Position numbers and translations under genes: made by a program. The notes beneath the pieces are model-generated. The model was not told where the DNA came from. It did no database searches and was given only the letters and a program-made list of their open reading frames with translations. A stretch of 47,184 nt of DNA from NCBI GenBank assembly GCA_965649215.1, contig CBFGJZ010000002.1:9150-56333 (forward strand). Direction: 5' to 3'. The stretch comes from a candidate division WOR-3 bacterium (GTDB taxonomy: Bacteria > Hydrothermota > Tepidihabitantia > Tepidihabitantales > CAIPLT01). How positions within the stretch are numbered: the stretch's first letter is position 1; each line of letters opens with the position of its first letter. Shown here piece after piece: positions 13,055 to 36,087 of this stretch.

Positions 13055-13204
13055 GAATGTCAATACAAAATAATTTATCATAAAATAAATGTTTTGTGAA
13101 AATAATTATAATTCTCGTTGGTGGGATAAGAGTAAAATAAAGTTATTGGGTCAAACAAATCTTTAATTGTCAGACAGATTAATAGTTTTGAGCCAGGAGT
13201 CGGC

Positions 13205-13432
13205 GTAATCTAATTGGTTGTCTTCCTCATAATCATTTAGATTACTCTTGAGGCGGTGCTTTTAGCAGTCTTATGGGTTATCCTTTCGGTTGTCCTCTGG
13301 ATGACCCGTCGGATATCCCAGGGGATAGCCCCCAGGTTAACCTTTTCGACTACCGAATCGGCAAAACTCTCGGTTGCTAAATAGGTTGCCGAATATATAA
13401 CCTATTGAATTGGATAATAGACGACAGCCAAA
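13205..13432. repeat. 12-bp-period array, copy 1: 19 in-phase units of degenerate palindrome GRYNRYC plus variable 5-nt spacer
   Basis: Units from 13205: gtaatctaattg gttgtcttcctc ataatcatttag attactcttgag gcggtgctttta gcagtcttatgg gttatcctttcg gttgtcctctgg atgacccgtcgg atatcccagggg atagcccccagg ttaaccttttcg actaccgaatcg gcaaaactctcg gttgctaaatag gttgccgaatat ataacctattga attggataatag acgacagccaaa. Hand counts: pos1 purine 18/19, pos2 pyrimidine 19/19, pos4 purine 18/19, pos5 pyrimidine 17/19, pos6 C 13/19, pos12 G 14/19. Confidence 0.85.
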
Positions 13433-13531
13433 CAGGTCAGGTAAAGTTATGGTTTGAAAATTTAAGTGGATATCAAAAATATCATGTATTATTTGAGGGA
13501 TATTTTAATATAATTATTTTACTGACTTCAT

Positions 13532-14022
13532 TTATTCCCTTAGATGTTCTAATATTTGCAGTATTCTAAAAAAAGGATTACCTTCATCATTTGTTCTTTT
13601 ACTTGCTTCTTCTTTTAACTCATTAATGCAATTAGTATAATGTTTATTTATTATTAATTGTAGGTTACTAATTTTATTGAGGTTTGCGTAATATAACCTT
13701 CAGGAACTACTGGTGACCAAAACATAAAAATATGATTCTGGAAATAAGCGAGGTGTTTTCTTGCGTATTCAATTTGTTTTTTATGTTTTCTTTTTATCTT
13801 ATCTACTGTGGTTTTATTATTATTATAAAGTACACCTCTTATGTGAGTAGTAACCTCACAAAGATAAGCAATTTTATTTCTGAAATCTAATCCAATCACA
13901 TCTATTTCGTCTAGCCCTTTTACACCTCCTCCTGGAGGTCTTACATTGTAATCAACAAAATCACACTTTTTAATTATTTTTAGATATGCTCCAACAATAT
14001 ATTCTCCAATATCTGTTTTCAT
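13532..14022 (-). pseudogene. PD-(D/E)xK-like (restriction-endonuclease-fold) protein with a 1-nt frameshift
   Basis: ORF 14022-13654 carries E...EIDVIG...LCEVTT. Restoring one A at ~13683 (minus-strand CAAACC) continues the frame as NLNKISNLQLIINKHYTNCINELKEEASKRTNDEGNPFFRILQILEHLRE to a TAA ending at 13532 (163 aa in total). Confidence 0.7.
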
Positions 14023-14049
14023 TGAGTACCTCTTTCTTTTATAATACCT

Positions 14050-15582
14050 TTATTCCCACTCCATTGTTGCGGGTGGTTTATTTGAGATATCATAGACAAC
14101 CCGATTAACTTCGCTGATTTCATTGGTAATTCGGGTTGAGATTTTCTCTAAAATCTCATACGGAATTTTGACAAAGTTGGCAGTCATTGCATCTTTTGAT
14201 TCGATAATCCTTATCACAATCGGATATTTGTAACTCCTCGCATCACCCTGAATCCCGACGCTTTTAATCGGCAAGAGCACGGCAAATGCCATCCAAACTC
14301 TCTCATATAATCCGACTTTTTTTAATTCCTGTTCAATAATATAACTTGCTTTGCGCACAATCTCAGCTTTTTCTTTGGTTACTTCGCCAACGATTCTAAT
14401 CGCTAAACCAGGACCAGGAAAGACATGTCGTTTGATAATTTCGTCTGAAAGTCCGATTTGTCTGGCGATTTTTCTCACTTCATCTTTATACAGGTTTTTT
14501 AACGGCTCAAATACTTCTAAATACATATTTTTCGGTAGACCGCCAACATTATGATGGGATTTTATGATTGAGGAGTGTTGAGTAATCCCACTTTCAATTC
14601 GATCTGAATAAATTGTACCTTGAATCAAAACTTCTGCTTTTTCCTTTATTGCGACTTCATCAAATACATCAATAAACAATTTACCAATAATCTTGCGTTT
14701 CTTTTCTGGTTCAACAACTCCTTTTAATGCCTTAAAAAATTTATCTGACGCATCAACGATTTTTAAGTTAAGATTGAATTTGGTGAAAACCTTTTTTATA
14801 AACTCAGTTTCTTGATATCTCATTAGACCAGTATCAACATAGACTGCGACTAAATTTTTACCAATCACTTCTTTCACCAAAACTGCCGCAGTAGATGAAT
14901 CAACTCCACCTGATAAACCAATCACCGCTTTTCTATTACCGATGACATCTTTAATTTCTTGTTTAATATTATGAATAACCCGTGAAGTATCCCACTCTCT
15001 TTTTGCCCGGCAAATATCAAAGACAAAGTTTTTTAATACTTGGAGACCGTTTTCCGTATGTGTAACTTCAGGATGAAACTGCACACCGTAAATTTTATTC
15101 TTGTTATCTTCAAACGCGGCGATTGGCGAATTTTTAGTCTTAGCAACAACTGAATAGTTTGATGGTAATTTTTTCACAATATCTTTATGATTCATCCACA
15201 CTAATGCTTTGTTATTTTTGCTTAAACCTTTTAAAATCTTGCTTGATCTTTTTATTATTAGTTCAGTTATGCCATATTCACCAGCTGTACCCGATAAAAC
15301 TTTACCTTTATCAAGATATGCAATTAATTGATGACCATAGCAAATACCGAGAATGGGAACCTGTAATTTAAAAATTTCTTTGTCGCACTTAGGAGATGAT
15401 TTGTCATAAACCGAGGCTGCGCCACCTGAAAGAATAATACCTTTTAGGTTTGGGATGTTTAATAATTCGTCTTTTGTGATGGAGGCAGGTTTAACTTCAG
15501 AATATACGCTTAAATCTCTGATTCTTCTTGAAATCAGATGGCAATATTGACCGCCAAAATCAATTACGATTATTTTATCCAT
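14050..15582 (-). CDS. guaA: GMP synthase (glutamine-hydrolysing)
   Basis: IDFGGQY, ILGICYGHQ, QFHPEV, SGGVDS, IKSHHNVGG, FPGPGLAIR, KPPATMEWE. ATG at 15582 preferred over TTG at 15594. Confidence 0.97.
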   Translation of the reverse strand: MDKIIVIDFGGQYCHLISRRIRDLSVYSEVKPASITKDELLNIPNLKGIILSGGAASVYDKSSPKCDKEIFKLQVPILGICYGHQLIAYLDKGKVLSGTAGEYGITELIIKRSSKILKGLSKNNKALVWMNHKDIVKKLPSNYSVVAKTKNSPIAAFEDNKNKIYGVQFHPEVTHTENGLQVLKNFVFDICRAKREWDTSRVIHNIKQEIKDVIGNRKAVIGLSGGVDSSTAAVLVKEVIGKNLVAVYVDTGLMRYQETEFIKKVFTKFNLNLKIVDASDKFFKALKGVVEPEKKRKIIGKLFIDVFDEVAIKEKAEVLIQGTIYSDRIESGITQHSSIIKSHHNVGGLPKNMYLEVFEPLKNLYKDEVRKIARQIGLSDEIIKRHVFPGPGLAIRIVGEVTKEKAEIVRKASYIIEQELKKVGLYERVWMAFAVLLPIKSVGIQGDARSYKYPIVIRIIESKDAMTANFVKIPYEILEKISTRITNEISEVNRVVYDISNKPPATMEWE

Positions 15583-15612
15583 GATTAGTGACAAACGGTC
15601 ATTACTTAAATA

Positions 15613-16722
15613 TTAATAATATATTTCTTTTATCTTGATATTTCGTTTTGCTATTTCTTCCTTTATATGCTTACAAATCTGCTCATCCATTCCTAATTTT
15701 TCTGGTGCAATAACTCCATACTCAGGATAATTTTTTATTAGTTGAGTGAAAATTGAACCCGAATAAGCAGTCATTCGTGCCATTGAGGTTATCTTATTTT
15801 TTTCATCGTAATAATCAATGCAAAGATATCGTTTACCTTTTCTTTTGCTCTTTATATCAATCAATAGAATCGTTAGGTCTTTGCCATCACCTTGGCTTAA
15901 CTGATCTTTTAGAAAATCTAAAACAAAGTCTTTCGGTTGCACTTTACTATTTGTAAACGGATTGTCTTGGTCAGGTGTGAATCCATAATTAAGTATTTCT
16001 TTGATAAGCCCAGCATGTCCTCTATAGCGAATAGTTTTTTCTTCCATATTTTTTATGTCTTGAAAAGTATGAAGTAAAGTGCGTAAACCATCAGTATAAA
16101 AACATTCTAATTTGCCAATTTTAGGAACGGAGAAATTTTCAATCCCTGTTAGTGCTTCAACTTGGAGGAGTTTATAATTATTTACAATCCTGGCGGGTCG
16201 TGTATATTCTTGAACTAAATCATCAGGTGACCAAGTATATTGATAATTAAAAGGCGGGCGAGGATTCATTGGCAAGCCGCCAACCAGAATTCTTAAACTA
16301 TCAATTTTACCGAATTCACGATATGCTTCACCAACTAAAACATTAGAAAGTCCGGGTGCATAACCCGAATCTGGAATAACGCGGACCTTGTTTTTTTTCG
16401 CCCGTTTGTCAAGTTTGAATGGGTCTTGATTAGAATATGACATATCAGCAATATCAACACCCGCTTCGATCGCGCACTGTATCGTATAAAAGCCGAGATG
16501 AGCCGGCAAAGCACCAAGCACAACATCAAAATCTTTAATAAGTCTTATCAGTTCTTTTTTATTACTAACATCAAAGAGTTTGGTTTTTATGGGTAATAAT
16601 TTTATAACCTTTTTGAGACTATTTTTATTTTTGTCAAGCACTGTAACATCGTGATTATGCTTTGCTAAATCTTGTGCGGCAACTCGACCCTGTAATCCTG
16701 CTCCTAAAATACATATTTTCAT
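15613..16722 (-). CDS. Saccharopine dehydrogenase / lysine 6-dehydrogenase family oxidoreductase
   Basis: Rossmann GAGLQG, DSGYAPGLSN, VGGLP, WSPDDLVQEY, TDGLRTL, KTIRYRGH, SMARMTAY. Confidence 0.88.
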   Translation of the reverse strand: MKICILGAGLQGRVAAQDLAKHNHDVTVLDKNKNSLKKVIKLLPIKTKLFDVSNKKELIRLIKDFDVVLGALPAHLGFYTIQCAIEAGVDIADMSYSNQDPFKLDKRAKKNKVRVIPDSGYAPGLSNVLVGEAYREFGKIDSLRILVGGLPMNPRPPFNYQYTWSPDDLVQEYTRPARIVNNYKLLQVEALTGIENFSVPKIGKLECFYTDGLRTLLHTFQDIKNMEEKTIRYRGHAGLIKEILNYGFTPDQDNPFTNSKVQPKDFVLDFLKDQLSQGDGKDLTILLIDIKSKRKGKRYLCIDYYDEKNKITSMARMTAYSGSIFTQLIKNYPEYGVIAPEKLGMDEQICKHIKEEIAKRNIKIKEIYY

Positions 16723-16729
16723 TTTTAGA

Positions 16730-16757
16730 ATATTAACACAAATGGCCTAAAAATCAA
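16730..16757 (-). promoter_or_regulatory. Putative sigma70-type promoter; leaderless transcript likely
   Basis: Minus strand TTGATT-N16-TAATAT, then 7 nt, then the ATG at 16722. No SD. Confidence 0.5.
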
Positions 16758-16843
16758 GTAGCCTAATATTTTTGAGGTATTGATAAATTTTTTCTGCTAG
16801 CGGCAAAACAACCAGAAAGTTAGAATTTATTTTTAAATATATT

Positions 16844-18151
16844 TTATCCTTTGGTCGCTACGCTTACATTATCAAAGAGAATTGCCGGCATCACTCCGCC
16901 ATAACTGTAATACAAGGTATCACTCACATCAATCACATTTTTCAAAAGTTCATAGATATTGCAAGCAACCATAACGTCTTTGAGTTGTCCTAAGATTTCG
17001 CCATTTTCAACATATAAAGCGGGGTTAGCGCCAATTGAGAGGTCCCCATTTGGAATATTGCCGCTATGAGCACCTAAAGCACCTTCAATGATGATACCAC
17101 GGTCAATTGATCGGATTATCTGTGAGATTGATTTATTGCCTGTTTGATATCGCATATATGATAGAGAAGGACTCGGTTTGATGCTTATGGCATCACTTTC
17201 CCATTGAGCAGTACGATAGCCATGACCGGTTGGTTTAGTATTCATTTTCTGAGCATAATTTAAATCGTAATAAAAGTTTCTTAAAACACCATTTTCAATT
17301 ACATAAAACTTATCTGCCGCGACCCCTTCATCATCAAAACTTCGAGCACCGGGATATTTATCGTCACGTGGATCATCATAAATGGTTATTTTCTCAGAAA
17401 ATATTTGTTCACCCTTTTTATGTGCAATCGGTGAAATTTTTTCATAGACACTTTTACCACTGGTTCCACTGTTAATACGCCAGTTAATGGCATACATTAC
17501 ATTGGGCATAAAGAGCACCTTCATTTTACCACTTTTGGCACTTATTTCTTGGGAGGATAGTTTATAATAGTCTACAATTTCCTGAATTAAATGTGCTGGC
17601 ATCGGATTAAATTTTTTATCGCTAAAGACACGACCGATGCCAGAGGCAGTACCAGGATAAGAGATTGAAGCATAAACACCAAAATGACTTGAAGTATTGG
17701 AGACATCGGTTCCTTGATGATTTAAGATACGGATAGTTTCAGTATAAGTATAAGCAGTTGCTGATACTTCACCGTTAGTAGTTTTAAGTATTTCACAAAT
17801 TCGATTACACTCATCAACCATCTGTTTAGTAGTGATTGTTTCAATCGATGCATCATAAGTGTTGAGTTTGGGTAAATCTTTTGTAAGTGGGAATTCATAT
17901 TCGGCTTTAACACCACCCTGCAGGGAATTTAATGCATTCTTTAACAATTCTTCCCGATTGATTAAATTCCGAGTATACGCAAAGCCAAGTTTACCATCCT
18001 TAATTATTCGGATACTCACACCAGATTGAAATTTTGTGTCAATTTCGTGTAGTTTAGCGTTCTCGAAAGAAACGACATTTTGTTTATTATCTAAACTATA
18101 AATTTCAACTTGGTCGCAGACTTTTTTGGCAATTTCTAATAGTTTTTCCAT
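16844..18151 (-). CDS. tldE: TldE/PmbA family protein
   Basis: Start MEKLLEIAKK at 18151 overlaps the tldD stop (TAATG). SFDDEGV, IENGVL and TGHG present. No HExxH motif. Confidence 0.85.
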   Translation of the reverse strand: MEKLLEIAKKVCDQVEIYSLDNKQNVVSFENAKLHEIDTKFQSGVSIRIIKDGKLGFAYTRNLINREELLKNALNSLQGGVKAEYEFPLTKDLPKLNTYDASIETITTKQMVDECNRICEILKTTNGEVSATAYTYTETIRILNHQGTDVSNTSSHFGVYASISYPGTASGIGRVFSDKKFNPMPAHLIQEIVDYYKLSSQEISAKSGKMKVLFMPNVMYAINWRINSGTSGKSVYEKISPIAHKKGEQIFSEKITIYDDPRDDKYPGARSFDDEGVAADKFYVIENGVLRNFYYDLNYAQKMNTKPTGHGYRTAQWESDAISIKPSPSLSYMRYQTGNKSISQIIRSIDRGIIIEGALGAHSGNIPNGDLSIGANPALYVENGEILGQLKDVMVACNIYELLKNVIDVSDTLYYSYGGVMPAILFDNVSVATKG

Positions 18152-19515
18152 TAGATACCTCCTAAAACTAAACCTTGGGCAATAATATGGGGCGCACCGT
18201 GACAAGAACGAATATTGATTTGTCCCTTACCACAACCACCGCGTTTGGTTAAAACCAAATCATTACCAATCGCAGTGATACCCATTAGTGTTTTATAAAG
18301 ATTACCCGAGATATTGATATCTCTTATCATGTCGCTTTTTTTGCCATTTTTTACAAGATAGCCATACTGAGCACCAAAAGTAAAATTTTCACCCGCAGTT
18401 TGGCCACCTTTGGCATCAAGGATATACAAGCCGTCGCCAAGTAAAGCGAATAAGTCTTCTAAAGTTTTATCTGCTGGTTCAATAAAGATTGTTCCCATCC
18501 GAACAATCGGTGCAAATCGGTAATCTTCAGCTACACAATGGCCTGAAAGTGGTTCTGAAAATTCAGCTGCTGTCCGTCGAGAGTGGAGCCGGCCAACTAA
18601 AACTCCATTTTTCATAAGTTGTGTGCGGCGCGCTTTAACTCCTTCATCATCGTATTTATAAAAACCTAATTGATGAGGGATGGTTGGATCATCAACAATA
18701 TTTAAAATATCGCTACCTAATTTGCTGCCGAGTTTCATCTTTTCTCGCATAGCGGGTAAATTTTCAATGATATCGGCTTCTGAAAAATGACCAAAGGCTT
18801 CATGAGTGAAAACTCCAGCCATACTAGGATTTAAAATGCAATTATAAATACCAGCTTTAATTGGAATCGCTTTTAATAAATCAATGGCAATTTTAGTCCG
18901 TTCTTCAAACTGGGCTTCAGGATTGCGAATTGTATGAAATCCGTCACTACCACCAGTCGCGACTCGGACATTCTGAACCAAGGTTCCATCTTTGGCAATA
19001 ATTTCACCCGCCAATGAAATTGTTATTAAGTCTTCTTGAATTTCTGAACCTTCTGATGAAACAAAAGACTTTTCCCGAATAGTTTCTCGATAAGCAATAT
19101 TGGTGGTAGCAATTTTGTCAAATTTCAGACAAACATTATTAGCTTTACGAGTAATATCTAACTTCTCTTCAATTGAAATTTGCCGAGGGTCTTCTTTTAA
19201 TGGCGGGGTAAATTTATCTTTAATAATTTCTGTTTTTGCGAGCAGAACAGGTTTAGTTTTATTTTTACCAATTAATTTAGCGTTTTCAACAACAAGCTTG
19301 GTTATTCGTTCGGCATCAGACGGTTTAGTGAAGACCGCACTGGCAAAACCACCATCTTTTAATGCTCGAACTACATAACCATCTGTGGAATTAGAAGTGA
19401 TTTGTGATAATTCTCGACCATTAAAAGCAATGACCGTCTCTTTTTTTATTTCATACCGAACATCTGCATAATCCGCATCAATTTGCGATAAAATTGATTT
19501 AATTTTCTCTAGCAT
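18151..19515 (-). CDS. tldD: TldD family metalloprotease
   Basis: HEAFGHFSEAD, YDDEGV, PIVRM, GGCGKGQ. SD AAGGAG. Confidence 0.92.
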   Translation of the reverse strand: MLEKIKSILSQIDADYADVRYEIKKETVIAFNGRELSQITSNSTDGYVVRALKDGGFASAVFTKPSDAERITKLVVENAKLIGKNKTKPVLLAKTEIIKDKFTPPLKEDPRQISIEEKLDITRKANNVCLKFDKIATTNIAYRETIREKSFVSSEGSEIQEDLITISLAGEIIAKDGTLVQNVRVATGGSDGFHTIRNPEAQFEERTKIAIDLLKAIPIKAGIYNCILNPSMAGVFTHEAFGHFSEADIIENLPAMREKMKLGSKLGSDILNIVDDPTIPHQLGFYKYDDEGVKARRTQLMKNGVLVGRLHSRRTAAEFSEPLSGHCVAEDYRFAPIVRMGTIFIEPADKTLEDLFALLGDGLYILDAKGGQTAGENFTFGAQYGYLVKNGKKSDMIRDINISGNLYKTLMGITAIGNDLVLTKRGGCGKGQINIRSCHGAPHIIAQGLVLGGI

Positions 19516-19551
19516 ATTTTCTCCTTATGTAAATACATTTAAATACAATGA

Positions 19552-19580
19552 ATAATAATGATAATTTTATTATTAGTCAA
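19552..19580 (-). promoter_or_regulatory. Putative promoter of tldD-tldE
   Basis: Minus strand TTGACT-N17-TATTAT. Confidence 0.6.
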
Positions 19581-19651
19581 GGATAATGAGATAAAACATT
19601 TAATGTTTAACCCAAGTCATTAAAGAAGTTATGGTTTTAAATCATGACCAC

Positions 19652-19680
19652 TTGACTATTGATTAATAATAATTTAGTAT
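19652..19680 (+). promoter_or_regulatory. Putative promoter of the TPR gene, divergent from tldD
   Basis: TTGACT-N17-TAGTAT. Confidence 0.55.
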
Positions 19681-19707
19681 AGATCAGATCGAACTAGGAC
19701 AAGGATT

Positions 19708-20820: not shown

Positions 20821-20846
20821 ATAATTTTATTAGTGCTTATACCAAA

Positions 20847-28050: not shown

Positions 28051-28170
28051 TATCGATTAAAAATATTTTACTTGAATCCGACTAAAAGGCAATAGATTAG
28101 ATAATTCTAAAATAAAAGACCAAAATTTATTTCTAAAGAATTATCCCCAATTAAAATTATAAGATATCGG

Positions 28171-29520
28171 TTATTTTATTTCGATCATATGAACCGAGCA
28201 AGAAATACAGGGATCATAAGCACGAACGATCATTTCTAAAATCAATTTAATTTCGTTTTGTTTTTCTTCGCTTAATTCATTAAGTGATTTAGATTCAACA
28301 TTAGTTAAGAGATTTTGAGCAGCGACACGAATATGAGTTTCCATTGAGTCCAAATTCTGAGTTGTTGGAATAACCATATTAGCAGCACTAACTAAACCGC
28401 GATTCACTTCGTAATAATGATATAATGTACCTCGAGGTGCTTCAACTGCACCAACAGCTTTGCCCGTAAGTTTAGGTGGTTTTTGAATTTTCGTATCGAC
28501 ACTTAATGTTTTTTCTTTTTTCAAAATCAGATCAATTAATCGGGGGATTTGTTCTAAGCTAAACAATATTTCGATAGCTTGGGCTAAATTACCGTATAAA
28601 GGATTTCTTATCCAACTTAGACTGTAACATCGTTTGAATGCTTCACCAGCTTTGTCTCGTAATCTTTCTCCTAATAGATTCATACGTGCTAATGCACCGA
28701 CGACAAAAGGTCGATCATTATAACGACACCGTTTAGCAGTAGAATGTTCAACAACTCGTTCATTAGTTAATTCTTTATATTTCTCGATGGGATGCTCTTC
28801 GCCCGTTGAAATTAATACTCGATCACCAACAAACCCATATTGATCTGTCGGTGGTTTTAAACACATAAAGACCATGCCATCTTCCATGGAAGTTGGATAT
28901 TGTAAATTGCGTAATAATTCGACCATTTCTTCAGCATCTTTAATTAACTCTTGAGCCTGCCATTTTATATCAAATAATTGTTGACGAGTTGGTATTGTGC
29001 CGAATCCGCCCACAGTTGCATTTTCACCATGGGTCCAGCGAGCAGTTATTGTTGCCATAATATGATTACCAAATTTTTTGAGTTTAAGGGCTTTTAGAAT
29101 TTGTGGTGCGAATTTATCGACCATGCTCACTGCAGACGGATAACCAACAAAATCGGGGAGGGCCAAAGCAAAAGCATGTAATGCATGGCTTTCAATCATT
29201 TCACCATAGTGCATGAGTGTTCTTAAATAGTGGGTGGCTTTAGTTTCTTTATAATCTAAAGCACGTTCAAAAGCTCGTATAGCTGCATAACGATGCGATA
29301 CCGAGCAAATCGCACAAATTCGTGGTACGATACTGGTTGCTTCTTGAGGTGTTTTGCCGATAACCAATGATTCAAAAAGCCGAGGGCCTTCAGGGATATT
29401 TAATTTAACATCTTTTATTTTACCCTTTTGTACTTCAACCAATATATTACCATGCCCTTCAACGCGTGCTAAAGCTGGAATTCGGATTTTATTAAAGTTT
29501 ATTTTTGTAATTTTTTCCAT
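28171..29520 (-). CDS. Group 3b NiFe hydrogenase (sulfhydrogenase) large/alpha subunit
   Basis: ARVEGHG, L1 RICAICSVSH, VEAPRGTLYH, L2 DPCISCSVH with a short tail (MIEIK). Confidence 0.93.
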   Translation of the reverse strand: MEKITKINFNKIRIPALARVEGHGNILVEVQKGKIKDVKLNIPEGPRLFESLVIGKTPQEATSIVPRICAICSVSHRYAAIRAFERALDYKETKATHYLRTLMHYGEMIESHALHAFALALPDFVGYPSAVSMVDKFAPQILKALKLKKFGNHIMATITARWTHGENATVGGFGTIPTRQQLFDIKWQAQELIKDAEEMVELLRNLQYPTSMEDGMVFMCLKPPTDQYGFVGDRVLISTGEEHPIEKYKELTNERVVEHSTAKRCRYNDRPFVVGALARMNLLGERLRDKAGEAFKRCYSLSWIRNPLYGNLAQAIEILFSLEQIPRLIDLILKKEKTLSVDTKIQKPPKLTGKAVGAVEAPRGTLYHYYEVNRGLVSAANMVIPTTQNLDSMETHIRVAAQNLLTNVESKSLNELSEEKQNEIKLILEMIVRAYDPCISCSVHMIEIK

Positions 29521-30287
29521 AGTGATTTAAAATGCTTAATAAATTTTACTCCACCAAAAAGGCGTAGTTTTCGTTCAATTTCTGAAAAAGTATATCCTTT
29601 TTCTTTTAAAAGACTGAATTGAGATGTCAAGTTGGCTTCGTCAGCCGGTCCGAAACAACCGATACAAGGTAAATTATGAGAAGGACAACGCGCTTTACAG
29701 CCCGCAGCAGTTACTGGACCTAAACAAAGTCTGTTTTTTAAGAGTAAACATTCATTTTCGTTCCATTTACATTCCAGGCAGACCGGTGTTTTAGGAACAT
29801 CAACTGGTAAATCTTTGAGGAGACGTGCGTAATTATAAAGGAATAGTTCTGCATCAATCGGGCAACCGGGAATATAGTAGTCGACTTTAATAAAAGCATC
29901 AACCGGTTTTGATTCGAATGGTTTAACAACCTTGAAATACTTTTTACCATATACTTTATCAAATCGTCTTGCCCAAGTACCTTTTTCATTTTCCATTGCC
30001 TGAACGCCACCGTAACACGAACAATTGCCAAGACAGACAATCTTTTTAGTACGGGGTCTGAGTTCGTGGAGAAATTCTTCTTGTTCATCAGTTGTCACTG
30101 AGCCATCGAGAAAGGCAATATCTTGTTCTTTTTCGACATTATTACTTTGGGCCATCAGAAAGGAAACGACATCGGCAGCATTAAAAATATCAAGTAACGA
30201 ATCCTCACAGTTTAAAATTGTTAACAGACAACCGGAACAGCCCGATAAATTATAAAAAGCTACTTTTGATTTATTAAAATTTGCCAT
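29499..30287 (-). CDS. NiFe hydrogenase small/delta subunit
   Basis: CSGC, DGSV, GNCSCYGG, IPGCP, and a C-terminal Fe-S Cys cluster (CLECK, CLGPVT, CIGCFG). Confidence 0.92.
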   Translation of the reverse strand: MANFNKSKVAFYNLSGCSGCLLTILNCEDSLLDIFNAADVVSFLMAQSNNVEKEQDIAFLDGSVTTDEQEEFLHELRPRTKKIVCLGNCSCYGGVQAMENEKGTWARRFDKVYGKKYFKVVKPFESKPVDAFIKVDYYIPGCPIDAELFLYNYARLLKDLPVDVPKTPVCLECKWNENECLLLKNRLCLGPVTAAGCKARCPSHNLPCIGCFGPADEANLTSQFSLLKEKGYTFSEIERKLRLFGGVKFIKHFKSLWKKLQK

Positions 30288-30288
30288 A

Positions 30289-31125
30289 TTAAATTAAATC
30301 CTTCATATGCATAACATCCCAGTATGAAAATACGGGACCATCTAAACATGTATATATTGAACCGATTACGCAATGTCCACATTTACCAACACCACAATGC
30401 ATGCGTCGTTCCAAAGTCATTAAGATTTGATGTTTAGGAATACCTAATTTAATTATTTCATCAATGACAAATTTATACATAACCGGCGGACCGCATACGG
30501 TCGCATAAGTATTTTTAGGGTCAATGTCTTGGAGATATTTAAATAAAGTTGTAACAACCCCGGTTTGTTCGGTCCAACGGCCAGTATCATCTTTATCAAC
30601 CGTTAACAAACAATGGAGGTCGTCACGTAATTTTAATTCCATGAATTCACGTCGGAAGAGCATTTCCGCAGGACGACGAGCACCGTAGAGGAAATAGATT
30701 TTACCGAAACGATCTCGGTTATCCAAAGTGTATAATAATAAAGAACGAAGTGGCACTGCACCCAAACCACCAACCACGATAATTAAATCTTTATTCTCAA
30801 ATTTATCAATTGGGAAGCCATTGCCGAAAGGACCACGAACACCGATAATTTCGTTTTCTTTGAGTTTAAATAATTGCTCTGTAATTATACCAACTTTACG
30901 GATACCAAATTCTAACAAGCCAGGACGAGACGGTGTTGAAGAAATTGAAAACGGCGCTTCGCCAACCCCGGCTAGCGATATCATCATAAATTGACCAGGT
31001 AAGTAATTTAATTGCAAAGCTCGTTCCATTTCGATGGGGCGGACTTGGAAAAATCGAACATCTTCAATTAAATCATAACGGCGTACAATTCTCATCGGTT
31101 CTGGTAAGTATACATTATTTTCCAT
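30289..31125 (-). CDS. Hydrogenase gamma subunit (FAD/NAD(P)-binding, 2Fe-2S)
   Basis: PGQFMM, EAPFSISS, RGPFGNGF, CGPPVM, RMHCGVGKCGHC, CLDGPVF. Confidence 0.92.
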   Translation of the reverse strand: MENNVYLPEPMRIVRRYDLIEDVRFFQVRPIEMERALQLNYLPGQFMMISLAGVGEAPFSISSTPSRPGLLEFGIRKVGIITEQLFKLKENEIIGVRGPFGNGFPIDKFENKDLIIVVGGLGAVPLRSLLLYTLDNRDRFGKIYFLYGARRPAEMLFRREFMELKLRDDLHCLLTVDKDDTGRWTEQTGVVTTLFKYLQDIDPKNTYATVCGPPVMYKFVIDEIIKLGIPKHQILMTLERRMHCGVGKCGHCVIGSIYTCLDGPVFSYWDVMHMKDLI

Positions 31126-32141
31126 TATTCACCTCCCTTGAGATTTGATACGACCGTTTTAACATTAATATCAACAGGACACGTATCAATGCAGCGTCCA
31201 CATCCAATACAGGCGGCTTTACCAAATTCAGTGATAAACGCTTTAAGTTTATGGGTATACCATAATCTGACCCGTTGAGAACGGGCTTCTCGGAAGTTAT
31301 GTCCACCCGCCACCAGAGCAAATTGTTTAAACATACATGAGTCCCAAACGCGTTCTCGTTTACCAGTGTTCTGAGCTGGACGAATTTGATCACTCATATT
31401 GTAACAAGGACAAGTTGGACAGACCATCGAACAGGCACCGCAAGAAAGACATTTTTCACCTAATTCATCCCAGACGGGACTGGTGTAATTCAATTCCATA
31501 ATATCCGGCATTGCAGTTAAGTTAATATTTAATTTATACTGAGCATCTCGCCAGTTACGCCATTCCATATATTTTTTTAAATCACTTTCTTTGATATTTT
31601 CATCAAATAAGTCAAACCTTATTCGCACCAAATCATCTCCTAAAGAAGAACCAACCCACACTAAATAGAATTCATCAAGATCATTGAATGCTAAATCAAA
31701 ACCTGACTCAACATAGTGGGTATTAGTAGATTTAGCAAAGCATTTTTCATCCGGCACACATGAGAGACCTAAAATTGCGGTTTTACGACGGCGTTCTGCG
31801 TAATAAGGATCGGGGAATCGTTCTAAAAAGAACTTATCAAGTATTAATAAGCCATGGATTTCACAAGGATGCACACCAAAGACAATTCGATTCGGAATAT
31901 TTTGTAATTCGGGAACATACTTATTATCGCTAAAGGTAAAAGTATTAAATTTTGGAGGCACTAGAAATTTTTTCACAGGTAAAATGGTTCGGAGCATTTT
32001 CGTGTCGAGCTTATCTAAGTCATCTAAGCGACCATATATATATTTTTCATCTTGTTTAATGGGGCCAAAGACTTCACCCCAGGTTCTTAAAGCATCGAGA
32101 TAATCATTAAGATTTTGTTTTTTTAGTTTTAATACTTTCAT
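31125..32141 (-). CDS. Hydrogenase beta subunit (4Fe-4S dicluster, AsrA-like)
   Basis: GVHPCE, CLSCGACSMVCPTC, WDSC, CIGCGRCIDTCPV. Confidence 0.92.
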   Translation of the reverse strand: MKVLKLKKQNLNDYLDALRTWGEVFGPIKQDEKYIYGRLDDLDKLDTKMLRTILPVKKFLVPPKFNTFTFSDNKYVPELQNIPNRIVFGVHPCEIHGLLILDKFFLERFPDPYYAERRRKTAILGLSCVPDEKCFAKSTNTHYVESGFDLAFNDLDEFYLVWVGSSLGDDLVRIRFDLFDENIKESDLKKYMEWRNWRDAQYKLNINLTAMPDIMELNYTSPVWDELGEKCLSCGACSMVCPTCPCYNMSDQIRPAQNTGKRERVWDSCMFKQFALVAGGHNFREARSQRVRLWYTHKLKAFITEFGKAACIGCGRCIDTCPVDINVKTVVSNLKGGE

Positions 32142-32167
32142 TTTGTATCCTTTGTTTTAAACACTTA

Positions 32168-32196
32168 ATAATAATGAAAATACCGAATAAAGTCAA
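32168..32196 (-). promoter_or_regulatory. Putative promoter of the hydrogenase operon
   Basis: Minus strand TTGACT-N17-TATTAT. SD AAGGA before the ATG at 32141. Confidence 0.6.
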
Positions 32197-32212
32197 TGTT
32201 TTTAAGTTAAAC

Positions 32213-32241
32213 TTGACAACAAGATATTTTATGTTTAGGAT
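32213..32241 (+). promoter_or_regulatory. Putative promoter of apbE-amrS
   Basis: TTGACA-N17-TAGGAT, then 11 nt to the ATG at 32253. Confidence 0.55.
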
Positions 32242-32252
32242 AAAAAGACGAG

Positions 32253-33215
32253 ATGAAAATAAAGAGACATATTAATTTAATTTTTAATATTGTCTTGTTA
32301 GTATTGCTTTCTTGTCAAATTAAGAAAAACAAGAGTTATGAGTATGAATATAATGATGTTATTTTTGGAAGTTATCTGCGAATAAAAATTAGCGCTTCGG
32401 ATTCGATTTTGGTAAGAAATACAATTAACGAAATAATGTCAGTTTTGTATCGGATTGATACAATCGCCTCAATTTTTAATCCCACCAGTGAAATAAATAG
32501 AATTAATAAAGCAGGTTATGGTCATATGTCGCCAGATTTTAAGTCATTAATTCTAAAATCAATAGAAATTTCAGACAACACCAATGGTGCATTTGATATA
32601 ACGATTGGTTCGGTTATGAAGCGATTTGGATTTTATCATGATAGTTTAGCAACCGATTCATTATTGAACACTAAAAAGGATTGGTCGGTTGGTTATCGAA
32701 ATATCTTAATTAAGGGCGATTCAATATTTCTCAACCCAAATACGCTCATTGATTTGGGCGGTATTACCGTAGGATATGTTTTAGATAAGATAGCGGAAGA
32801 AATTTTGAAAACAAGAGCATTGGAAAATGTATTGATCGATATTGGTGGAGATATTATTTGTTATGGAAATAAAACTTTCTTAATTGGAATAAGAGATCCG
32901 CAGAATTTAGGAATAATTAGAACTATCAGAATAAAAAATCAAGCGATTTCTACATCTGGTAATTATGAAAAATACATTGAACGAAACGGACATAAATATA
33001 CGCATCTCATTGACCCCAAAATTCAAATGCCAATTTCAGATAGTTCAAATAACTTAAGTAGTGTAACGATTATTGCGGATAAAGCAACCGATGCCGATGC
33101 TTATGCAACCGCAGTGTTTGTCTTAGGATTAGAAGCAGGACAAAAACTGATGCGTCGATTGAATTTACACGGTGTACTTATTACCAATAAGGGAAATGTT
33201 ATTGAGATCCTATAG
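32253..33215 (+). CDS. apbE: FAD:protein FMN transferase (ApbE family lipoprotein)
   Basis: Lipobox LLSC, SEINRIN, GAFDITIG, IDLGGI, DIGGD, STSGNYE, HLIDP, ADAYATA. Confidence 0.92.
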   Translation: MKIKRHINLIFNIVLLVLLSCQIKKNKSYEYEYNDVIFGSYLRIKISASDSILVRNTINEIMSVLYRIDTIASIFNPTSEINRINKAGYGHMSPDFKSLILKSIEISDNTNGAFDITIGSVMKRFGFYHDSLATDSLLNTKKDWSVGYRNILIKGDSIFLNPNTLIDLGGITVGYVLDKIAEEILKTRALENVLIDIGGDIICYGNKTFLIGIRDPQNLGIIRTIRIKNQAISTSGNYEKYIERNGHKYTHLIDPKIQMPISDSSNNLSSVTIIADKATDADAYATAVFVLGLEAGQKLMRRLNLHGVLITNKGNVIEIL

Positions 33216-33230
33216 ATAATTCTTAACAGT

Positions 33231-34247
33231 ATGGAAAAAGTATTAGTTGAGGCAAAATATTATAAAAAAATCTATAAAAACAATAAGGAATTCATCCAAT
33301 GTGAATTATGTCCTAATTTTTGTGTGATTGATGATAACAAAGTTGGGTTGTGTTTAGGGCGAAAAAATATTAATGGTAAATTATACGCAATAAATTATGG
33401 CGAAGTTGTCGCGATCGCGATGGATCCGATTGAGAAAAAACCGTTATATCATTTTTTCCCTGGGGCACCAATTTTTTCAATCGCTACCTTTGGATGTAAT
33501 TTACGATGTCCCTTCTGTCAGAATTGGGAGATTTCTCAACAGCGAGCAGATAGCAAATTTTATAGTCCCGATGAATTGATTAAGACCGCAACGCATTATC
33601 CGACAATTGGTATTGCTTATACCTTTAATGAGCCGTTAATCTGGTTTGAGTATTTGCTTGATGTTATGCCGCTTGCTCATAAAGCAAGTTTGAAAAATGT
33701 TTTGGTAACCAATGGTATGATAAATCCGCAACCCCTTCAAGACCTGCTGCCTTATTTAGATGCTTTAAATATTGACTTAAAATCAATCCGAGCCGATTTT
33801 TATCGAGATTTTGTTAAAGGAGATTTGAAAACTGTCCTAAATACTATTGAAACTACTCGCAAAACTTGTCACATTGAACTGACTAATTTGTTAATTCCAA
33901 CCAAAAATGATTCCCGAGAAGATATTCAAGCGTTAGTTGATTACTGTGCCGGTCTCGGTCGAGACACTGTGCTTCATTTTACTCGTTATTTTCCTTATCA
34001 TAAAGTTAAACTTCCCTACACTTCAGAGGAGACATTGCTGATGGCTTTATCAATTGCAAAAGCAAAGTTAGATTATGTCTATTTAGGTAATATTGGTGGC
34101 TATGATAATAATACTTATTGTCCCAATTGTCATAATCTTTTAGTGAATCGTGGTTATTTTAATACCATTGCGACAGGATTAACCAATAATAATATTTGTA
34201 ATAAATGCGGTTATAAAATCTACGGTGTATTTGATGAAAACAAATAA
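33231..34247 (+). CDS. amrS: AmmeMemoRadiSam-system radical SAM enzyme
   Basis: CELCP..C, DPIEKKPLYHF, GCNLRCPFCQNWEISQ (CxxxCxxC), TFNEP, YLGN, C-terminal CPNC/CNKC. Confidence 0.9.
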   Translation: MEKVLVEAKYYKKIYKNNKEFIQCELCPNFCVIDDNKVGLCLGRKNINGKLYAINYGEVVAIAMDPIEKKPLYHFFPGAPIFSIATFGCNLRCPFCQNWEISQQRADSKFYSPDELIKTATHYPTIGIAYTFNEPLIWFEYLLDVMPLAHKASLKNVLVTNGMINPQPLQDLLPYLDALNIDLKSIRADFYRDFVKGDLKTVLNTIETTRKTCHIELTNLLIPTKNDSREDIQALVDYCAGLGRDTVLHFTRYFPYHKVKLPYTSEETLLMALSIAKAKLDYVYLGNIGGYDNNTYCPNCHNLLVNRGYFNTIATGLTNNNICNKCGYKIYGVFDENK

Positions 34248-34301
34248 CAGTATTATGGGACTAATAATTTTAACGATAAATAAAAAACAATAAAAAAACT
34301 T

Positions 34302-34559
34302 ATGAGAAGAAGTTTTTGGTTTGTATTCTTAGTAATTTTAGTAAGTGCTATTATTGGTTCAGTTTTTTCTCACATATTGGCGAAAATATTTCCACAAGGT
34401 CCAGCATATAACTTATTTTGTAATGTCTTTTCGGTCGGTATACCACAATTTGTGGTTAATTTAGGGTTTCTTTCTTTTTCATTTGGATTGACTCTATCAA
34501 TCAGCGGTTTGGTCGTCTTATTCATCATATTAGCATTGATAATTCTCTTAAAATTTTAA
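34302..34559 (+). CDS. Small membrane protein (DUF4321-like)
   Basis: 85 aa with two hydrophobic ends and NLGFLSFSFGLTLSI. Family assignment is from recall. Confidence 0.7.
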   Translation: MRRSFWFVFLVILVSAIIGSVFSHILAKIFPQGPAYNLFCNVFSVGIPQFVVNLGFLSFSFGLTLSISGLVVLFIILALIILLKF

Positions 34560-34681
34560 AACTACTCAAAAGGTAAGTTCATAAATACTAATTTTTAACA
34601 TTCCTAGTAAATAAATTTTACAGGATTTTTACGGATAGTTTTAGAATACAAAAGGGAGAGTTTTGCTAATTAATGCGGACG

Positions 34682-35497
34682 TTATTCGTTGAGAATTACA
34701 AAAACTTTACATTGCTTTAAGAGTTTAAGGTTATTCTGGGAACTATGGATGGTTTTCGCGGTGGCTCGGGAAATGATAATATCGGTTTTGTTATCGCCAC
34801 TACTTTGAATTGCAGAAATTCGTAAAGGATTCGTACCGACTAATTTTTCATCAAAAGCATCATTGATTGATTTCAAATAGGTTATCAAACCATGGTTGCG
34901 CAGAGCTTGTTGGTCCGTAAAATTGACAGTGTAAATTTCATGGTTATCTTCACTTATGATTTTCGGAAACAGAGCCGGTCTTAAGAAAATATCACGGGCG
35001 TCAATAATAATTGCGGTATAAATAATGTTGGGTTCTTGTTCTAAGGGAATAAGTTTAACATCGGGTGGTACTTCTTGATTTTCAGGCCAGACTCTTTTAC
35101 AAATGGGACAGGCAAGTTCACTCACCAAAGTCGGTTCTTTTAAGTCAGGTATAAGCAAATCAATCAAATTCCCACTTATGGGTAGTTCATACTGGATAAT
35201 TACTGAACCATCAGAAAGAAATTTAACATCGGTTTCATTTATTTTTAGTTGCAATCGGTCGAATTGACGAGCGATATTTCTATTTTCATTGAGATAATCT
35301 TCAACAGTTCGCTTACTATCATAAAACATAGTTCTAATCAATGATTTAGCAAGAGATTGTATTTTATAAGATGAAGTTTCACTATTAATCTCTTTTGTTT
35401 CGATTCGCACTAGCCAATTTGAATAATCAATATTGTCAGCTAATATACAATGAGTTAGGATGAGAAGTGATAGAATCAGTCTTATTTTATTTATCAT
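34682..35497 (-). CDS. Hypothetical exported protein (possibly LPP20-related)
   Basis: 271-aa ORF with a signal peptide, CPIC and YTAIIIDAR..LRPALFPKI. Confidence 0.7.
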   Translation of the reverse strand: MINKIRLILSLLILTHCILADNIDYSNWLVRIETKEINSETSSYKIQSLAKSLIRTMFYDSKRTVEDYLNENRNIARQFDRLQLKINETDVKFLSDGSVIIQYELPISGNLIDLLIPDLKEPTLVSELACPICKRVWPENQEVPPDVKLIPLEQEPNIIYTAIIIDARDIFLRPALFPKIISEDNHEIYTVNFTDQQALRNHGLITYLKSINDAFDEKLVGTNPLRISAIQSSGDNKTDIIISRATAKTIHSSQNNLKLLKQCKVFVILNE

Positions 35498-35517
35498 TTT
35501 AAAATTTTACTTAACAA

Positions 35518-35590
35518 AGCGGGTGACGGGAGTCGAACCCGCGGCCTCAAGCTTGGGAAGCTTGCGCTCTACCAGATGAGCTACACCCGC
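35518..35590 (-). tRNA. tRNA-Gly (anticodon CCC); CCA not encoded
   Basis: Minus strand GCGGGTGTAGCTCATCTGGTAGAGCGCAAGCTTCCCAAGCTTGAGGCCGCGGGTTCGACTCCCGTCACCCGCT: acceptor stem GCGGGTG/CACCCGC, anticodon loop TTCCCAA, T-loop TTCGACT. Confidence 0.97.
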
Positions 35591-35622
35591 ATAATACATT
35601 GTAAAGTTCAAATTCAATATAG

Positions 35623-35650
35623 AGTATAAGTCAACCTTATTATATGTCAA
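35623..35650 (-). promoter_or_regulatory. Putative promoter of tRNA-Gly
   Basis: Minus strand TTGACA-N16-TATACT. Confidence 0.7.
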
Positions 35651-35790
35651 GAGGTGGGATAAACTTTATTAAAATCAAAGAAATATAAATTTGCCCCACA
35701 GGTGCCCTATACTTCGAAACGCAGCAAAGTTAAGAAAACATCATTACTGATTTCGGCTAAATCGGTTTGTCTTGAAGACCACCTCGTGTT

Positions 35791-35994
35791 TTGACCTACA
35801 AAACAACTTAGCAGGTTATCCGTTACGTCACATAGTAGGTTGCCGATTAGGTAGCCCCCTGGCTCACCTAGAAAGTAAACTTTTATGTTACCTACTCCAT
35901 TATAAAATAACTAAGTTACCCCATTACTGATTATGTTACTAAGTGGATTATCTATTAAATTGTCTACTATATTACCAAGATAATCACCTCTTAG
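35791..35994. repeat. 12-bp-period array, copy 2: 17 in-phase units, same motif as 13205-13432
   Basis: Units from 35791: ttgacctacaaa acaacttagcag gttatccgttac gtcacatagtag gttgccgattag gtagccccctgg ctcacctagaaa gtaaacttttat gttacctactcc attataaaataa ctaagttacccc attactgattat gttactaagtgg attatctattaa attgtctactat attaccaagata atcacctcttag. Hand counts: pos1 purine 14/17, pos2 T 16/17, pos4 purine 17/17, pos5 pyrimidine 15/17, pos6 pyrimidine 15/17. Decayed units may extend left to ~35690. Confidence 0.82.
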
Positions 35995-36087
35995 GTCTAT
36001 CGCGCCCGTGAGTTGAAAATTTATTTGTAAACCAAATTAAAGAAATATACTTAACCTTAACAAATTTTCATAGATATTGATAATATC

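What the first reader, a model, noticed from the sequence alone, without database searches (positions are those of the whole stretch)
13120..36036. Two copies of an unrecognised ~350-370 bp non-coding element: conserved termini enclosing a 12-bp repeat-spacer array, each next to a nuclease/defence-like gene
Seen in sequence: two ORF-free intergenic blocks 22.5 kb apart (13120-13477 and 35653-36036) share architecture and orientation. Each has a left motif GGTGGGATAA, then 19 or 17 in-phase 12-nt units (7-nt degenerate palindrome GRYNRYC plus a 5-nt spacer that nearly always differs), then a right motif AGGTC-N15-TTGAAAATTTA. Phase is kept without indels while unit sequences diverge, which is unlike ordinary slippage minisatellites. 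Both copies end ~65 bp from the stop of a minus-strand accessory gene: a PD-(D/E)xK-like nuclease in one case and a HEPN-like/947-aa pair in the other. Established knowledge: the period is too short for CRISPR arrays, is one third of the ~36-nt TIGR unit, and the layout differs from integron attC and REP elements. Inference: candidates are (i) a guide-like or structured ncRNA array, (ii) a lattice of dyad sites for a cooperatively polymerising DNA-binding dimer, (iii) a decoy or target-site array for a nuclease or methylase (the motif includes GGTNACC-type sites), or (iv) a recombination or capture platform that marks accessory-gene landing sites.
Basis: partly seen in the sequence, partly recalled or inferred. 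Interest (0 to 1): 0.92.

Follow-up and report, generated by a model that had tools for sequence, protein, structure and literature searches.

The report
Dispersed 12-bp lattice repeat family
The two blocks are ordinary members of a family of about two dozen 270-bp intergenic repeats per genome, each built from about 17 strictly in-phase 12-bp mirror-symmetric units, which looks like a docking track for a DNA-binding protein rather than a guide array or a defence-specific element.

Summary
The 12-nt periodicity is real in both blocks (z 5.5-7.5 against shuffles). They are not a two-copy element. A lag-12 scan and a sequence model find 24 loci in this 1.64-Mb genome, and relatives of the same order carry tens more.

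The family core is about 265-285 bp. It has imperfect inverted ends, 17-19 units with consensus N-T-A-G-G-T-T-A-C-C-T-A (a dyad every 6 bp), and one small conserved hairpin unit.
- The left motif GGTGGGATAA lies outside the core and is within chance.
- One 12-nt phase is kept in 21 of 23 copies here and 27 of 30 in relatives.
- Indels per substitution are more than 10-fold rarer in the array than in the element's own end segments.
- There is no conserved RNA fold, no copy-specific arm pairing and no Rfam match.
- Stops occur in every frame.
- Copies are present or absent between related species.
- Neighbours are mostly housekeeping genes.

Best reading: a lineage-specific REP/MITE-class repeat whose lattice binds a symmetric DNA-binding dimer. 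The partner protein is unknown. The guide-array and decoy readings are not supported.

The parts
13186..13463 (+). Copy A, family core (left inverted end about 13186-13215, array, right inverted end about 13434-13463)
   Evidence: The sequence model R1 matches C2:22338-22614, which is window 13189-13465 (E 5e-26). nhmmer gives 101 bits. The ends were read.
13204..13431 (+). Copy A array, 19 in-phase 12-nt units; includes the hairpin-type unit at about 13324-13342
   Evidence: Register print and lag-12 z 7.5. Single phase over all three thirds.
35772..36022 (+). Copy B, family core (left inverted end about 35772-35797, array, right inverted end about 35993-36022)
   Evidence: R1 matches C2:44919-45180, which is window 35770-36031 (E 2.5e-40). 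nhmmer gives 150 bits.
35796..35999 (+). Copy B array, 17 in-phase units
   Evidence: PWM chain C2:44945-45148. Lag-12 z 5.5, lag-36 z 6.8.
35848..35870 (+). Conserved small hairpin unit (a unit split by a 4-bp stem and 4-nt loop). It is the best-conserved part of the family
   Evidence: This is the only structure RNAalifold keeps in 16 copies. It also holds the nearly invariant columns of alignment A2.
13120..13129 (+).
35653..35662 (+).
   Evidence: Sequence read. The promoter reading is inference from the sequence.
35518..35590 (-). tRNA-Gly(CCC), neighbour of copy B
36015..39922 (-). Strain-variable segment holding the 947-aa Dsr1-like gene (36088-38931) and the 233-aa gene (38924-39625). 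It is not part of the repeat
   Evidence: PADLOC Dsr1 4e-53. A contig of run X5 joins 36014 to 39923 with 393 other letters between. Runs X2 and X3 cover the segment at lower depth.
13654..14022 (-). 122-aa ORF beside copy A. No family assigned; not part of the repeat
   Evidence: The sister genome has other ORFs at this place.

Best explanation
Blocks A and B are two ordinary members of a lineage-specific family of non-coding, dispersed intergenic repeats in the REP/BIME/MITE class.

Each element is about 270 bp. It has imperfect inverted ends (an A-run, then CAGG-type, then TAACCT-type sequence; mirrored at the other end as AGGTC, 12-16 nt, a short G-rich word such as TGGG, then GAAAATTT). 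Between the ends lie 17-19 head-to-tail 12-bp units that carry two-fold symmetry centres every 6 bp.

The conserved, indel-protected register and the reverse-complement symmetry of the unit are best explained by double-stranded DNA recognition. In this reading a symmetric (dimeric) DNA-binding protein occupies successive units and polymerises along the roughly 200-bp track. That protein would be either the element's own, unidentified, mobilising protein or a host nucleoid protein.

SHOWN: family membership, architecture, phase constraint, absence of coding or RNA-fold signal, gain and loss between species, and placement near gene 3' ends.
INFERRED: that a protein binds the lattice, and which one.

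Adjacency to a Dsr1-like defence pair (B) and a small unknown ORF (A) reflects shared residence in permissive, variable intergenic spots. It is not a functional link.
For: FAMILY AND ARCHITECTURE
- There are 24 loci in the genome by model R1, and 25 windows with lag-12 z above 6.
- The top PWM chains are 17-19 units long.
- Internal gaps among 16 copies are 12-nt blocks.
- The unit PWM is symmetric: 4/10 .60/.63, 5/9 .45/.45, 3/11 .56/.55, 2/12 .61/.60.

PHASE CONSTRAINT
- One phase is kept over all thirds in 21 of 23 copies here and in 27 of 30 in relatives; 9 of 39 relatives' copies were dropped as too short.
- In a young subfamily (22 comparisons to one reference), the array has 3 gap events per 806 substitutions. 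The two end segments have 29 per 390 and 27 per 541. The array is also the least diverged part, at .19 against .35-.43 substitutions per site.

NO RNA OR CODING SIGNAL
- RNAalifold gives -0.8 kcal/mol and keeps only a 6-pair hairpin.
- A copy's own left and right arms pair no better than arms of different copies: -21.8 against -22.3 kcal/mol at 70 nt.
- Stops occur in every frame. The best frame averages 1.9 stops per array, close to my hand estimate of about 2.3 from the PWM.
- There is no lag-3 signal.

TURNOVER AND DISTRIBUTION
- The C17 locus is filled here and in the sister genome, in opposite orientation, but empty in another genus.
- A locus filled in G009 is empty in two genomes of the same genus.
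- Distribution: 17 of 41 relatives. In the phylum sample, 6 of 151 genomes, all in the window's own order.
- Lattices of the same period but other unit words occur in other genera of the order.
Against: - No binding protein is identified, and no experiment or RNA data exist.
- No target-site duplication was seen at the ends I could inspect.
- No transposase of five common families was found in this 95%-complete assembly. Mobility by a known route is therefore unproven.
- The centre of the unit prefers T over A (.51 against .24) relative to element orientation. This is a polarity that a purely symmetric site does not need.
- In one genus, promoter-like modules (TTGGAA-17-TATAAT) face into the element from its ends, which fits transcription.
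- In G016 the units are not palindromic, so the dimer argument does not carry over to every lattice family.
- The comparisons share ancestry, and alignment of the end segments is less certain.
Confidence: 0.5

Rival explanations
1. The elements are genes for a non-coding RNA, for example a scaffold or sponge that presents about 17 repeated motifs to an RNA-binding protein. The RNA would be transcribed from promoters at the element ends.
For: - In the G007/G009 subfamily, a conserved, sometimes tandemly repeated 57-nt module with a near-consensus -35/17/-10 sits at both ends and points inward.
- T is preferred over A at the unit centre, which gives a polarity.
- The size and the motif count recall CsrB-type sponges. 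That comparison is recalled; Rfam CsrB itself gave only an 18.6-bit chance-level hit outside the element.
Against: - There is no consensus fold or covariation.
- The unit statistics are reverse-complement symmetric, which single-strand recognition does not need.
- Orientation relative to neighbouring genes is mixed.
- No clear promoter or terminator is present at the G000 copies.
- No Rfam family matches.
- No RNA run holds the locus; this is no evidence either way.
Confidence: 0.2
2. The element is a selfish, slippage-prone palindromic array with no sequence-specific partner. On this view the periodicity persists only because unit-sized slippage and unequal exchange dominate its mutation spectrum.
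For: - Unit-number changes come in 12-nt blocks.
- Elements come and go between species.
- Copies sit where insertions are tolerated, near 3' ends, in at least 22 of 24 loci.
- Earlier notes of this scan describe similar palindromic short-period arrays in other phyla.
Against: - Units within an array are diverged (about 4.9 bits per unit), unlike arrays that slipped recently.
- Array length is held at 17-19 units across genera.
- Small indels are rare in the array while frequent in the same element's end segments, and the array is the most conserved part.
Confidence: 0.15
3. The element is a recombination or landing platform. Its right end would serve as an attachment or exchange site next to which accessory (defence) genes are inserted.
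For: - A related strain lacks 36015-39922 (the Dsr1-like pair), and the break falls at the outer edge of B's right end.
- Between A's ortholog and guaA the sister genome carries different ORFs.
- The locus with a TdeIII-type restriction gene has no counterpart in five relatives.
Against: - At most 4 of 42 immediate neighbours look defence-related. The rest are mostly housekeeping genes, plus several large surface proteins and proteins of unknown family.
- The break is only where likeness drops below 85%.
- tRNA genes alone explain an island at B.
- No recombinase is consistently adjacent.
Confidence: 0.08
4. The element is a guide-RNA array (CRISPR- or TIGR-like), or a decayed gene for a 4-residue-repeat protein.
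For: - The layout is periodic.
- One frame reads L-x-G-x, and in GC-richer relatives several frames are open. In G016, a Shine-Dalgarno-like GGAGG and a GTG precede an approximately 80-codon hydrophobic frame in the one copy read in full; the second copy has GCAGG at that place.
Against: - There are no variable spacers.
- No Nop-domain protein is found.
- Stops occur in all six frames in 22 of 23 G000 copies, at about the rate I estimated by hand from the PWM.
- No start codon is seen in the two long reverse frames I read base by base, C22 and C17.
- There is no lag-3 periodicity.
Confidence: 0.04

Closest known systems
REP/BIME elements of enterobacteria and their RAYT transposases
   Same: Both are dispersed, intergenic and palindromic. 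Both occur as mosaics of units in alternating symmetry, are placed after genes, and are present in tens of copies. BIMEs are known protein-docking sites for gyrase and IHF (recalled, not from a call).
   Different: Here the unit is 12 bp, strictly phased and 17-19 units long, with distinct inverted ends. No Y1/RAYT gene was found in G000, G003, G004, G007 or G009, all of which carry many copies.
Bacterial MITEs (e.g. Correia, RUP, Nezha; recalled)
   Same: Both are short and non-coding, have inverted ends, occur in many copies, differ in presence between relatives, and include subfamilies with recent bursts.
   Different: No target duplication was seen and no autonomous partner was found. The interior lattice, not the ends, is the best-conserved part.
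Iteron-type protein lattices: tubC/TubR centromeres, and omega or ParG operator arrays
   Same: Both are rows of short direct or inverted sites on which a small dimer spreads into a filament or ring over 130-350 bp. For tubC I saw passages of PMC6009700. The 12-bp tubC period of pBtoxis and the heptad arrays of omega are recalled.
   Different: Those are single loci beside their own protein gene on plasmids or phages. Here there are 24 chromosomal copies with no adjacent cognate gene.
Dispersed short-period tandem repeats
   Same: Both are intergenic, dispersed, sometimes palindromic units that are lineage-specific (unchecked AI notes).
   Different: Those have near-identical units and variable length typical of slippage. 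Here the units are degenerate, the length is fixed, and the array is bounded by conserved ends.
Subterminal 12-bp TnpA-binding repeats of plant En/Spm (CACTA) transposons and Foldback elements (recalled)
   Same: Both have many short protein-binding motifs filling the region inside inverted ends.
   Different: Those are eukaryotic, their motifs are irregularly spaced, and a transposase is encoded by master copies.

Membership tests
CRISPR array | Identical direct repeats of 23-50 nt alternating with unique spacers of similar length | tested here: not met
   The period is 12 nt and units are degenerate. The 5-nt 'spacer' is itself a conserved palindrome.
TIGR-Tas | Units of about 36 nt with dual spacers, plus an adjacent Nop-domain Tas protein | tested here: not met
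   The period is 12. PF01798 finds nothing in the 95%-complete genome, while 4 archaeal controls are detected.
MITE | Terminal inverted repeats | tested here: met
   Imperfect inverted ends are shared by left ends and reverse-complemented right ends. An outer pair is seen in the G009/G007 subfamily.
MITE | Target-site duplication | tested here: inconclusive
   None was seen at the ends inspected. The empty sites available come from diverged species, so exact junctions are unclear.
MITE | Presence/absence at orthologous sites | tested here: met
   The C17 locus is empty in G004. The G009:C8 locus is empty in G003 and G007.
MITE | Autonomous partner with the same ends | tested here: inconclusive
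   Y1_Tnp, DDE_Tnp_1, rve, IS110 and DDE_3 are not found in G000. Other families were not tested, and MAGs often lose IS copies.
REP/REPIN with RAYT | A 20-40-nt palindromic REP and a single-copy Y1 (RAYT) gene in the genome | tested here: not met
   No PF01797 match in G000, G003, G004, G007 or G009, which all carry many copies.
Any Rfam RNA family | Match at or near the gathering score | tested here: not met
   In the window only the tRNA matches. Seven element loci scanned at E up to 1 gave two sub-threshold hits outside the arrays.
Slippage-type simple tandem repeat (LSSR/STRR) | Near-identical units and variable copy number | tested here: not met
   TRF finds only a 2-unit fragment in A and nothing in B. 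The unit PWM carries about 4.9 bits, and length is 17-19 units.
Integron attC / cassette array | attC imperfect palindromes flanking promoterless cassettes, next to an integron integrase | not tested
   Layout only: no cassette series is present. The tyrosine recombinase at 41423-42316 was not classified further.
Protein-coding 4-residue repeat gene | An open frame with a start codon, and codon periodicity | tested here: not met
   Stops in all frames. No start codon in the two long reverse frames read base by base. No lag-3 signal.

The most novel reading that the evidence does not exclude
The 12-bp lattices are assembly tracks for a lineage-specific filament-forming DNA-binding protein, comparable to an H-NS-like silencer or a centromere-type spreader. 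About two dozen such docking elements would be seeded along the chromosome. The unit word would co-evolve with the protein between genera: a GGTNACC type in this family and in g21, and CCTATTGG or CTAATT types in g12. If so, this hot-spring order would hold a previously undescribed system of dispersed, phase-locked protein-polymerisation sites that organise the chromosome or insulate or silence neighbouring genes.
Probability: 0.25. Interest if true: 0.8.

Novelty: new variant of a known kind. Interest (0 to 1): 0.55.

Why it matters
Dispersed bacterial repeats are usually either short hairpins (REP) or slippage arrays. This family is different. It has a fixed-length track of 17-19 units at a 12-bp period, with dyads every 6 bp. 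The register is protected against small indels while the letters drift. The same architecture recurs with different unit words across one order of uncultured hot-spring bacteria. That pattern is what a co-evolving protein and DNA lattice would leave, and it gives a concrete bait for finding the protein. It also corrects a tempting misreading: the arrays are neither guide arrays nor markers of defence genes. They also break MAG assemblies, since many copies lie at contig ends.

Tried and rejected
- RNA expression: no RNA holder was listed for the locus, so expression remains untested.
- Apex motif in public collections: the exact apex motif gave only single chance-like hits in unrelated genomes. 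It gave none in viral contigs and none in JGI metagenome contigs.
- Long hairpin or foldback model: rejected. The apex unit is off-centre and shifts by whole units. There is no consensus structure, own arms pair no better than foreign arms, and units keep one orientation across the element.
- Coding reading: rejected for this genome.
- RAYT partner: rejected.
- TIGR: rejected.
- Left motif as a true terminus: rejected.
- Recurrent neighbouring protein family: all-against-all BLAST of 91 flanking ORFs found only paralogous giant surface proteins beside 5 elements and one pair of 123-aa paralogs with inconsistent placement. No partner candidate emerged.
- Master copy: a profile of the terminal repeats alone, meant to hunt for a master copy with a gene inside, was not built. 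Whether an autonomous copy exists stays open.
- Literature: four searches listed no description of such bacterial 12-bp lattice repeats. Only listings and abstracts were seen, plus passages of PMC6009700. Subscription journals are not covered.
Full report
OBSERVATION
Both blocks lie between genes and have no long ORF. Identity at lags 12, 24 and 36 stands out against 500 shuffles. For the array cores, z is 7.5, 5.7 and 5.8 for A and 5.5, 6.5 and 6.8 for B. There is nothing at lags 3, 6 or 9. Tandem Repeats Finder sees only a two-unit fragment in A, because the units are degenerate. Rfam at gathering thresholds finds only tRNA-Gly(CCC) at 35518-35590 on the minus strand.

NOT TWO COPIES BUT A FAMILY
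The two terminal motifs together occur only at A and B. However, a genome-wide lag-12 scan that discounts codon periodicity gives 25 windows with z above 6. A unit-PWM chain search finds arrays of mostly 17-19 units. An nhmmer profile and a sequence-only covariance model (R1, built from 16 copies) recover 24 loci in the 1.64-Mb assembly.

The aligned copies share three features:
- a left end: an A-run, then CAGG-type, then TAACCT-type sequence;
- 17-19 units;
- a right end: AGGTC, then 12-16 nt, then a short G-rich word such as TGGG, then GAAAATTT.

Left ends resemble reverse-complemented right ends, so the ends are imperfect inverted repeats. It is also not statistically special: 28 of 231 pairs of element upstream flanks and 130 of 3000 random genome pairs share a word of 10 nt or more.

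UNIT ANATOMY
From 364 units of 22 copies the consensus is N-T-A-G-G-T-T-A-C-C-T-A. The strongest positions are T6 (.82), A8 (.73), C10 (.63) and G4 (.60). Mirrored positions have nearly equal frequencies.60/.63.45/.45.56/.55 and .61/.60. Only the centre is polar, with T at .51 and A at .24. The '5-nt spacer' is thus the second half of a continuous dyad lattice with symmetry centres every 6 bp. It is not a variable spacer. One unit per element is expanded into a small hairpin (a 4-bp stem with a 4-nt loop, inside a unit). Its position shifts between copies by whole units.

CONSTRAINT ON REGISTER
Internal gaps in the 16-copy alignment are 12-nt blocks. All three thirds of the array share one phase in 21 of 23 copies of this genome and in 27 of 30 copies from relatives. 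Nine of 39 relatives' copies were dropped because the core was under 140 nt. The chance of agreement is 1 in 144.

In a young subfamily (20 copies of G007 plus 3 of G009, compared with one reference):
- the array has 806 substitutions and 3 gap events;
- the element's own end segments have 29 gap events per 390 substitutions and 27 per 541;
- the array is the least diverged part, at .19 against .35-.43 substitutions per site.

These comparisons share ancestry, and the end segments align less surely. Even so, the contrast is more than ten-fold.

NOT RNA STRUCTURE, NOT CODING
RNAalifold on 16 copies gives -0.8 kcal/mol and keeps only the small hairpin. Single-sequence folds pair the ends, but a copy's own left and right arms pair no better than arms taken from different copies. 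Own against cross means are -10.9/-11.9, -21.8/-22.3, -32.1/-34.8 and -43.6/-48.0 kcal/mol at 45-130 nt. The complementarity therefore comes from the shared palindromic word, not from co-evolving pairs.

Every frame carries stops. The best frame averages 1.9 stops per array, close to my hand estimate of about 2.3 from the PWM, and only 1 of 23 copies is stop-free in it. The two long reverse frames I read base by base (C22, C17) show no start codon. Seven element loci scanned against Rfam at E up to 1 give only two sub-threshold hits outside the arrays.

PLACEMENT AND NEIGHBOURS
All copies are intergenic. In at least 22 of 24 loci a neighbouring gene's 3' end faces the element. Seven loci lie between convergent genes, and orientation relative to genes is mixed. 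At one locus the upstream gene keeps its own intrinsic terminator ahead of the element.

Of 42 immediate neighbours, most are housekeeping genes such as NadA, GlyS, EF-P, LeuRS, trigger factor, SurA, GuaA and AdoHcyase; several others are large surface proteins or have no family. At most four look defence-related: a TdeIII-type restriction enzyme, the Dsr1-like protein, a DEAD/Cas3-like helicase and a 23S-IVP protein. Five elements follow paralogous giant surface-protein genes.

The 947-aa protein next to B matches PADLOC Dsr1 over model positions 309-1217 (4e-53). The 233-aa protein has only faint nuclease hints. The 122-aa ORF next to A has no family and only weak PD-(D/E)xK-type leads.

TURNOVER
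- The C17 locus is filled here and in the sister genome G001, but with the hairpin unit at the opposite side, meaning opposite orientation. It is empty in G004, with 92 nt between the flanks instead of 319.
- A locus filled in G009 (about 800 nt, with other small repeats) has 46 nt in G007 and 142 nt in G003, both of the same genus.
- G009 and G007 carry a subfamily whose repeated unit is 450-490 nt or more. It has outer inverted modules that look like promoters facing inward and are sometimes tandemly repeated.
- In the sister genome, separate elements sit beside each of A's two flanking genes on different contigs. This suggests rearrangement at elements.
- Contigs of related strains cover B at about 87% identity. 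One strain lacks 36015-39922, with the break at the outer edge of B's right end and 393 other letters in its place. Two other runs carry the segment at lower depth than the flanks.

DISTRIBUTION
Model R1 matches 17 of 41 relatives: family f1 9 of 9, f3 2 of 2, f4 2 of 4, f2 3 of 19 and f5 0 of 6. In an even sample of the phylum it matches 6 of 151 genomes, all in the window's own order.

A five-unit G-N-T-N-A-N-C lattice pattern (up to 3 mismatches) was first checked on G000, where it hit 16 of 24 elements and nothing else. Across the phylum it is abundant only within the order. No genome among about 206 outside the order exceeded 3 matches.

Within the order the same 12-nt period carries other words:
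- a GC-rich GGTNACC-type unit in G038, with 165 matches;
- non-palindromic CTATT-type and CTAATT-type units in G016, which give 253 matches of the reversed pattern.

In those GC-richer genomes several frames are open, so openness there is not informative.

The runs that hold the locus are labelled hot-spring metagenomes. The genome encodes type IX secretion parts.

RESTRICTION-SITE ASPECT
GGTNACC is the second most depleted of 64 interrupted 7-mer palindromes outside the elements (124 observed, 268 expected, ratio .46). It is 44-fold denser inside them. Even so, there are only 22 exact sites in the 6.5 kb of element DNA. This fits restriction pressure eroding exact sites better than it fits a decoy function.

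INTERPRETATION
The secure part is that A and B belong to a lineage-specific, non-coding, dispersed repeat family with inverted ends and a phase-locked dyad lattice. The link to defence genes is incidental.

The mechanistic part is inference. Reverse-complement symmetry without pairing covariation, together with protection of the register, points to recognition of duplex DNA by a symmetric dimer that spreads along the track. Known lattices of this logic exist: tubC/TubR (passages seen in PMC6009700), and omega or ParG operators and En/Spm subterminal repeats (recalled).

Several facts keep rivals alive:
- no transposase of five common families is found here;
- no target duplication was seen;
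- the unit centre is polar;
- promoter-like modules occur in one genus.

These leave room for an RNA product, for a purely selfish slippage array, and, weakly, for a recombination platform.

Noticed in passing
G000:C31:16213-16340, C22:690-830, C2:137989-138080 and 138400-138440 (outside the window): A second repeat family of small GC-rich hairpins lies beside several lattice elements.
   Followed up: no
whole genome; G000:C30:8784-9560: GGTNACC (ratio .46) and GGGNCCC (.41) are the most depleted interrupted palindromes. A TdeIII-type restriction endonuclease gene (Pfam 1e-62) sits beside one element. The depletion suggests restriction-modification pressure.
   Followed up: partly
window 36088-39625 and 39922-40170: A Dsr1-like 947-aa protein lacks the N-terminal part of the PADLOC model. 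It overlaps an upstream 233-aa gene with faint nuclease hints, so this may be a split defence system. The segment is absent from one related strain, and a ParE-type toxin gene abuts it.
   Followed up: partly
L183 (G016:C3) 1060-1290; L182 (G016:C67) about 1440-1700: In G016 the 12-nt arrays have a non-palindromic CTATT-type unit with a 24-nt super-period. In the copy read in full, GGAGG plus GTG precedes an approximately 80-codon frame of hydrophobic 4-residue repeats ending at a stop shared with a second copy. Several other frames are also open, so whether it codes is unresolved.
   Followed up: partly
G007:C73:9539-10310; L154 40-165; L166 250-450: A 57-nt module with two TATAAT boxes and a TTGGAA-17-TATAAT arrangement forms the outer inverted ends of the G007/G009 subfamily. 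It also occurs as a tandem array of at least seven copies on its own.
   Followed up: partly
G000:C1:115190-115240; L002 1745-1815: A short cluster of AATTATCAA-type words follows the lattice element at two unrelated loci, one in this genome and one in the sister genome. Its function is unknown.
   Followed up: no
L113 about 4520-4700 and orthologs in G007:C100 and G003:C6: An approximately 170-nt intergenic stretch is almost identical in three species of genus g3, next to a variable spacer. It looks like a conserved structured RNA and was not scanned.
   Followed up: no
G000:C3:60878-75833, C15:10427-16791, C8:38369-40321, C5:68397-73298, C1:678-3284: Paralogous very large proteins (650-2397 aa; some with Ig-like, MAM or Kelch hits) lie immediately next to five lattice elements. 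In four cases the element follows the gene in the same relative orientation, which suggests that gene and element were duplicated together.
   Followed up: no
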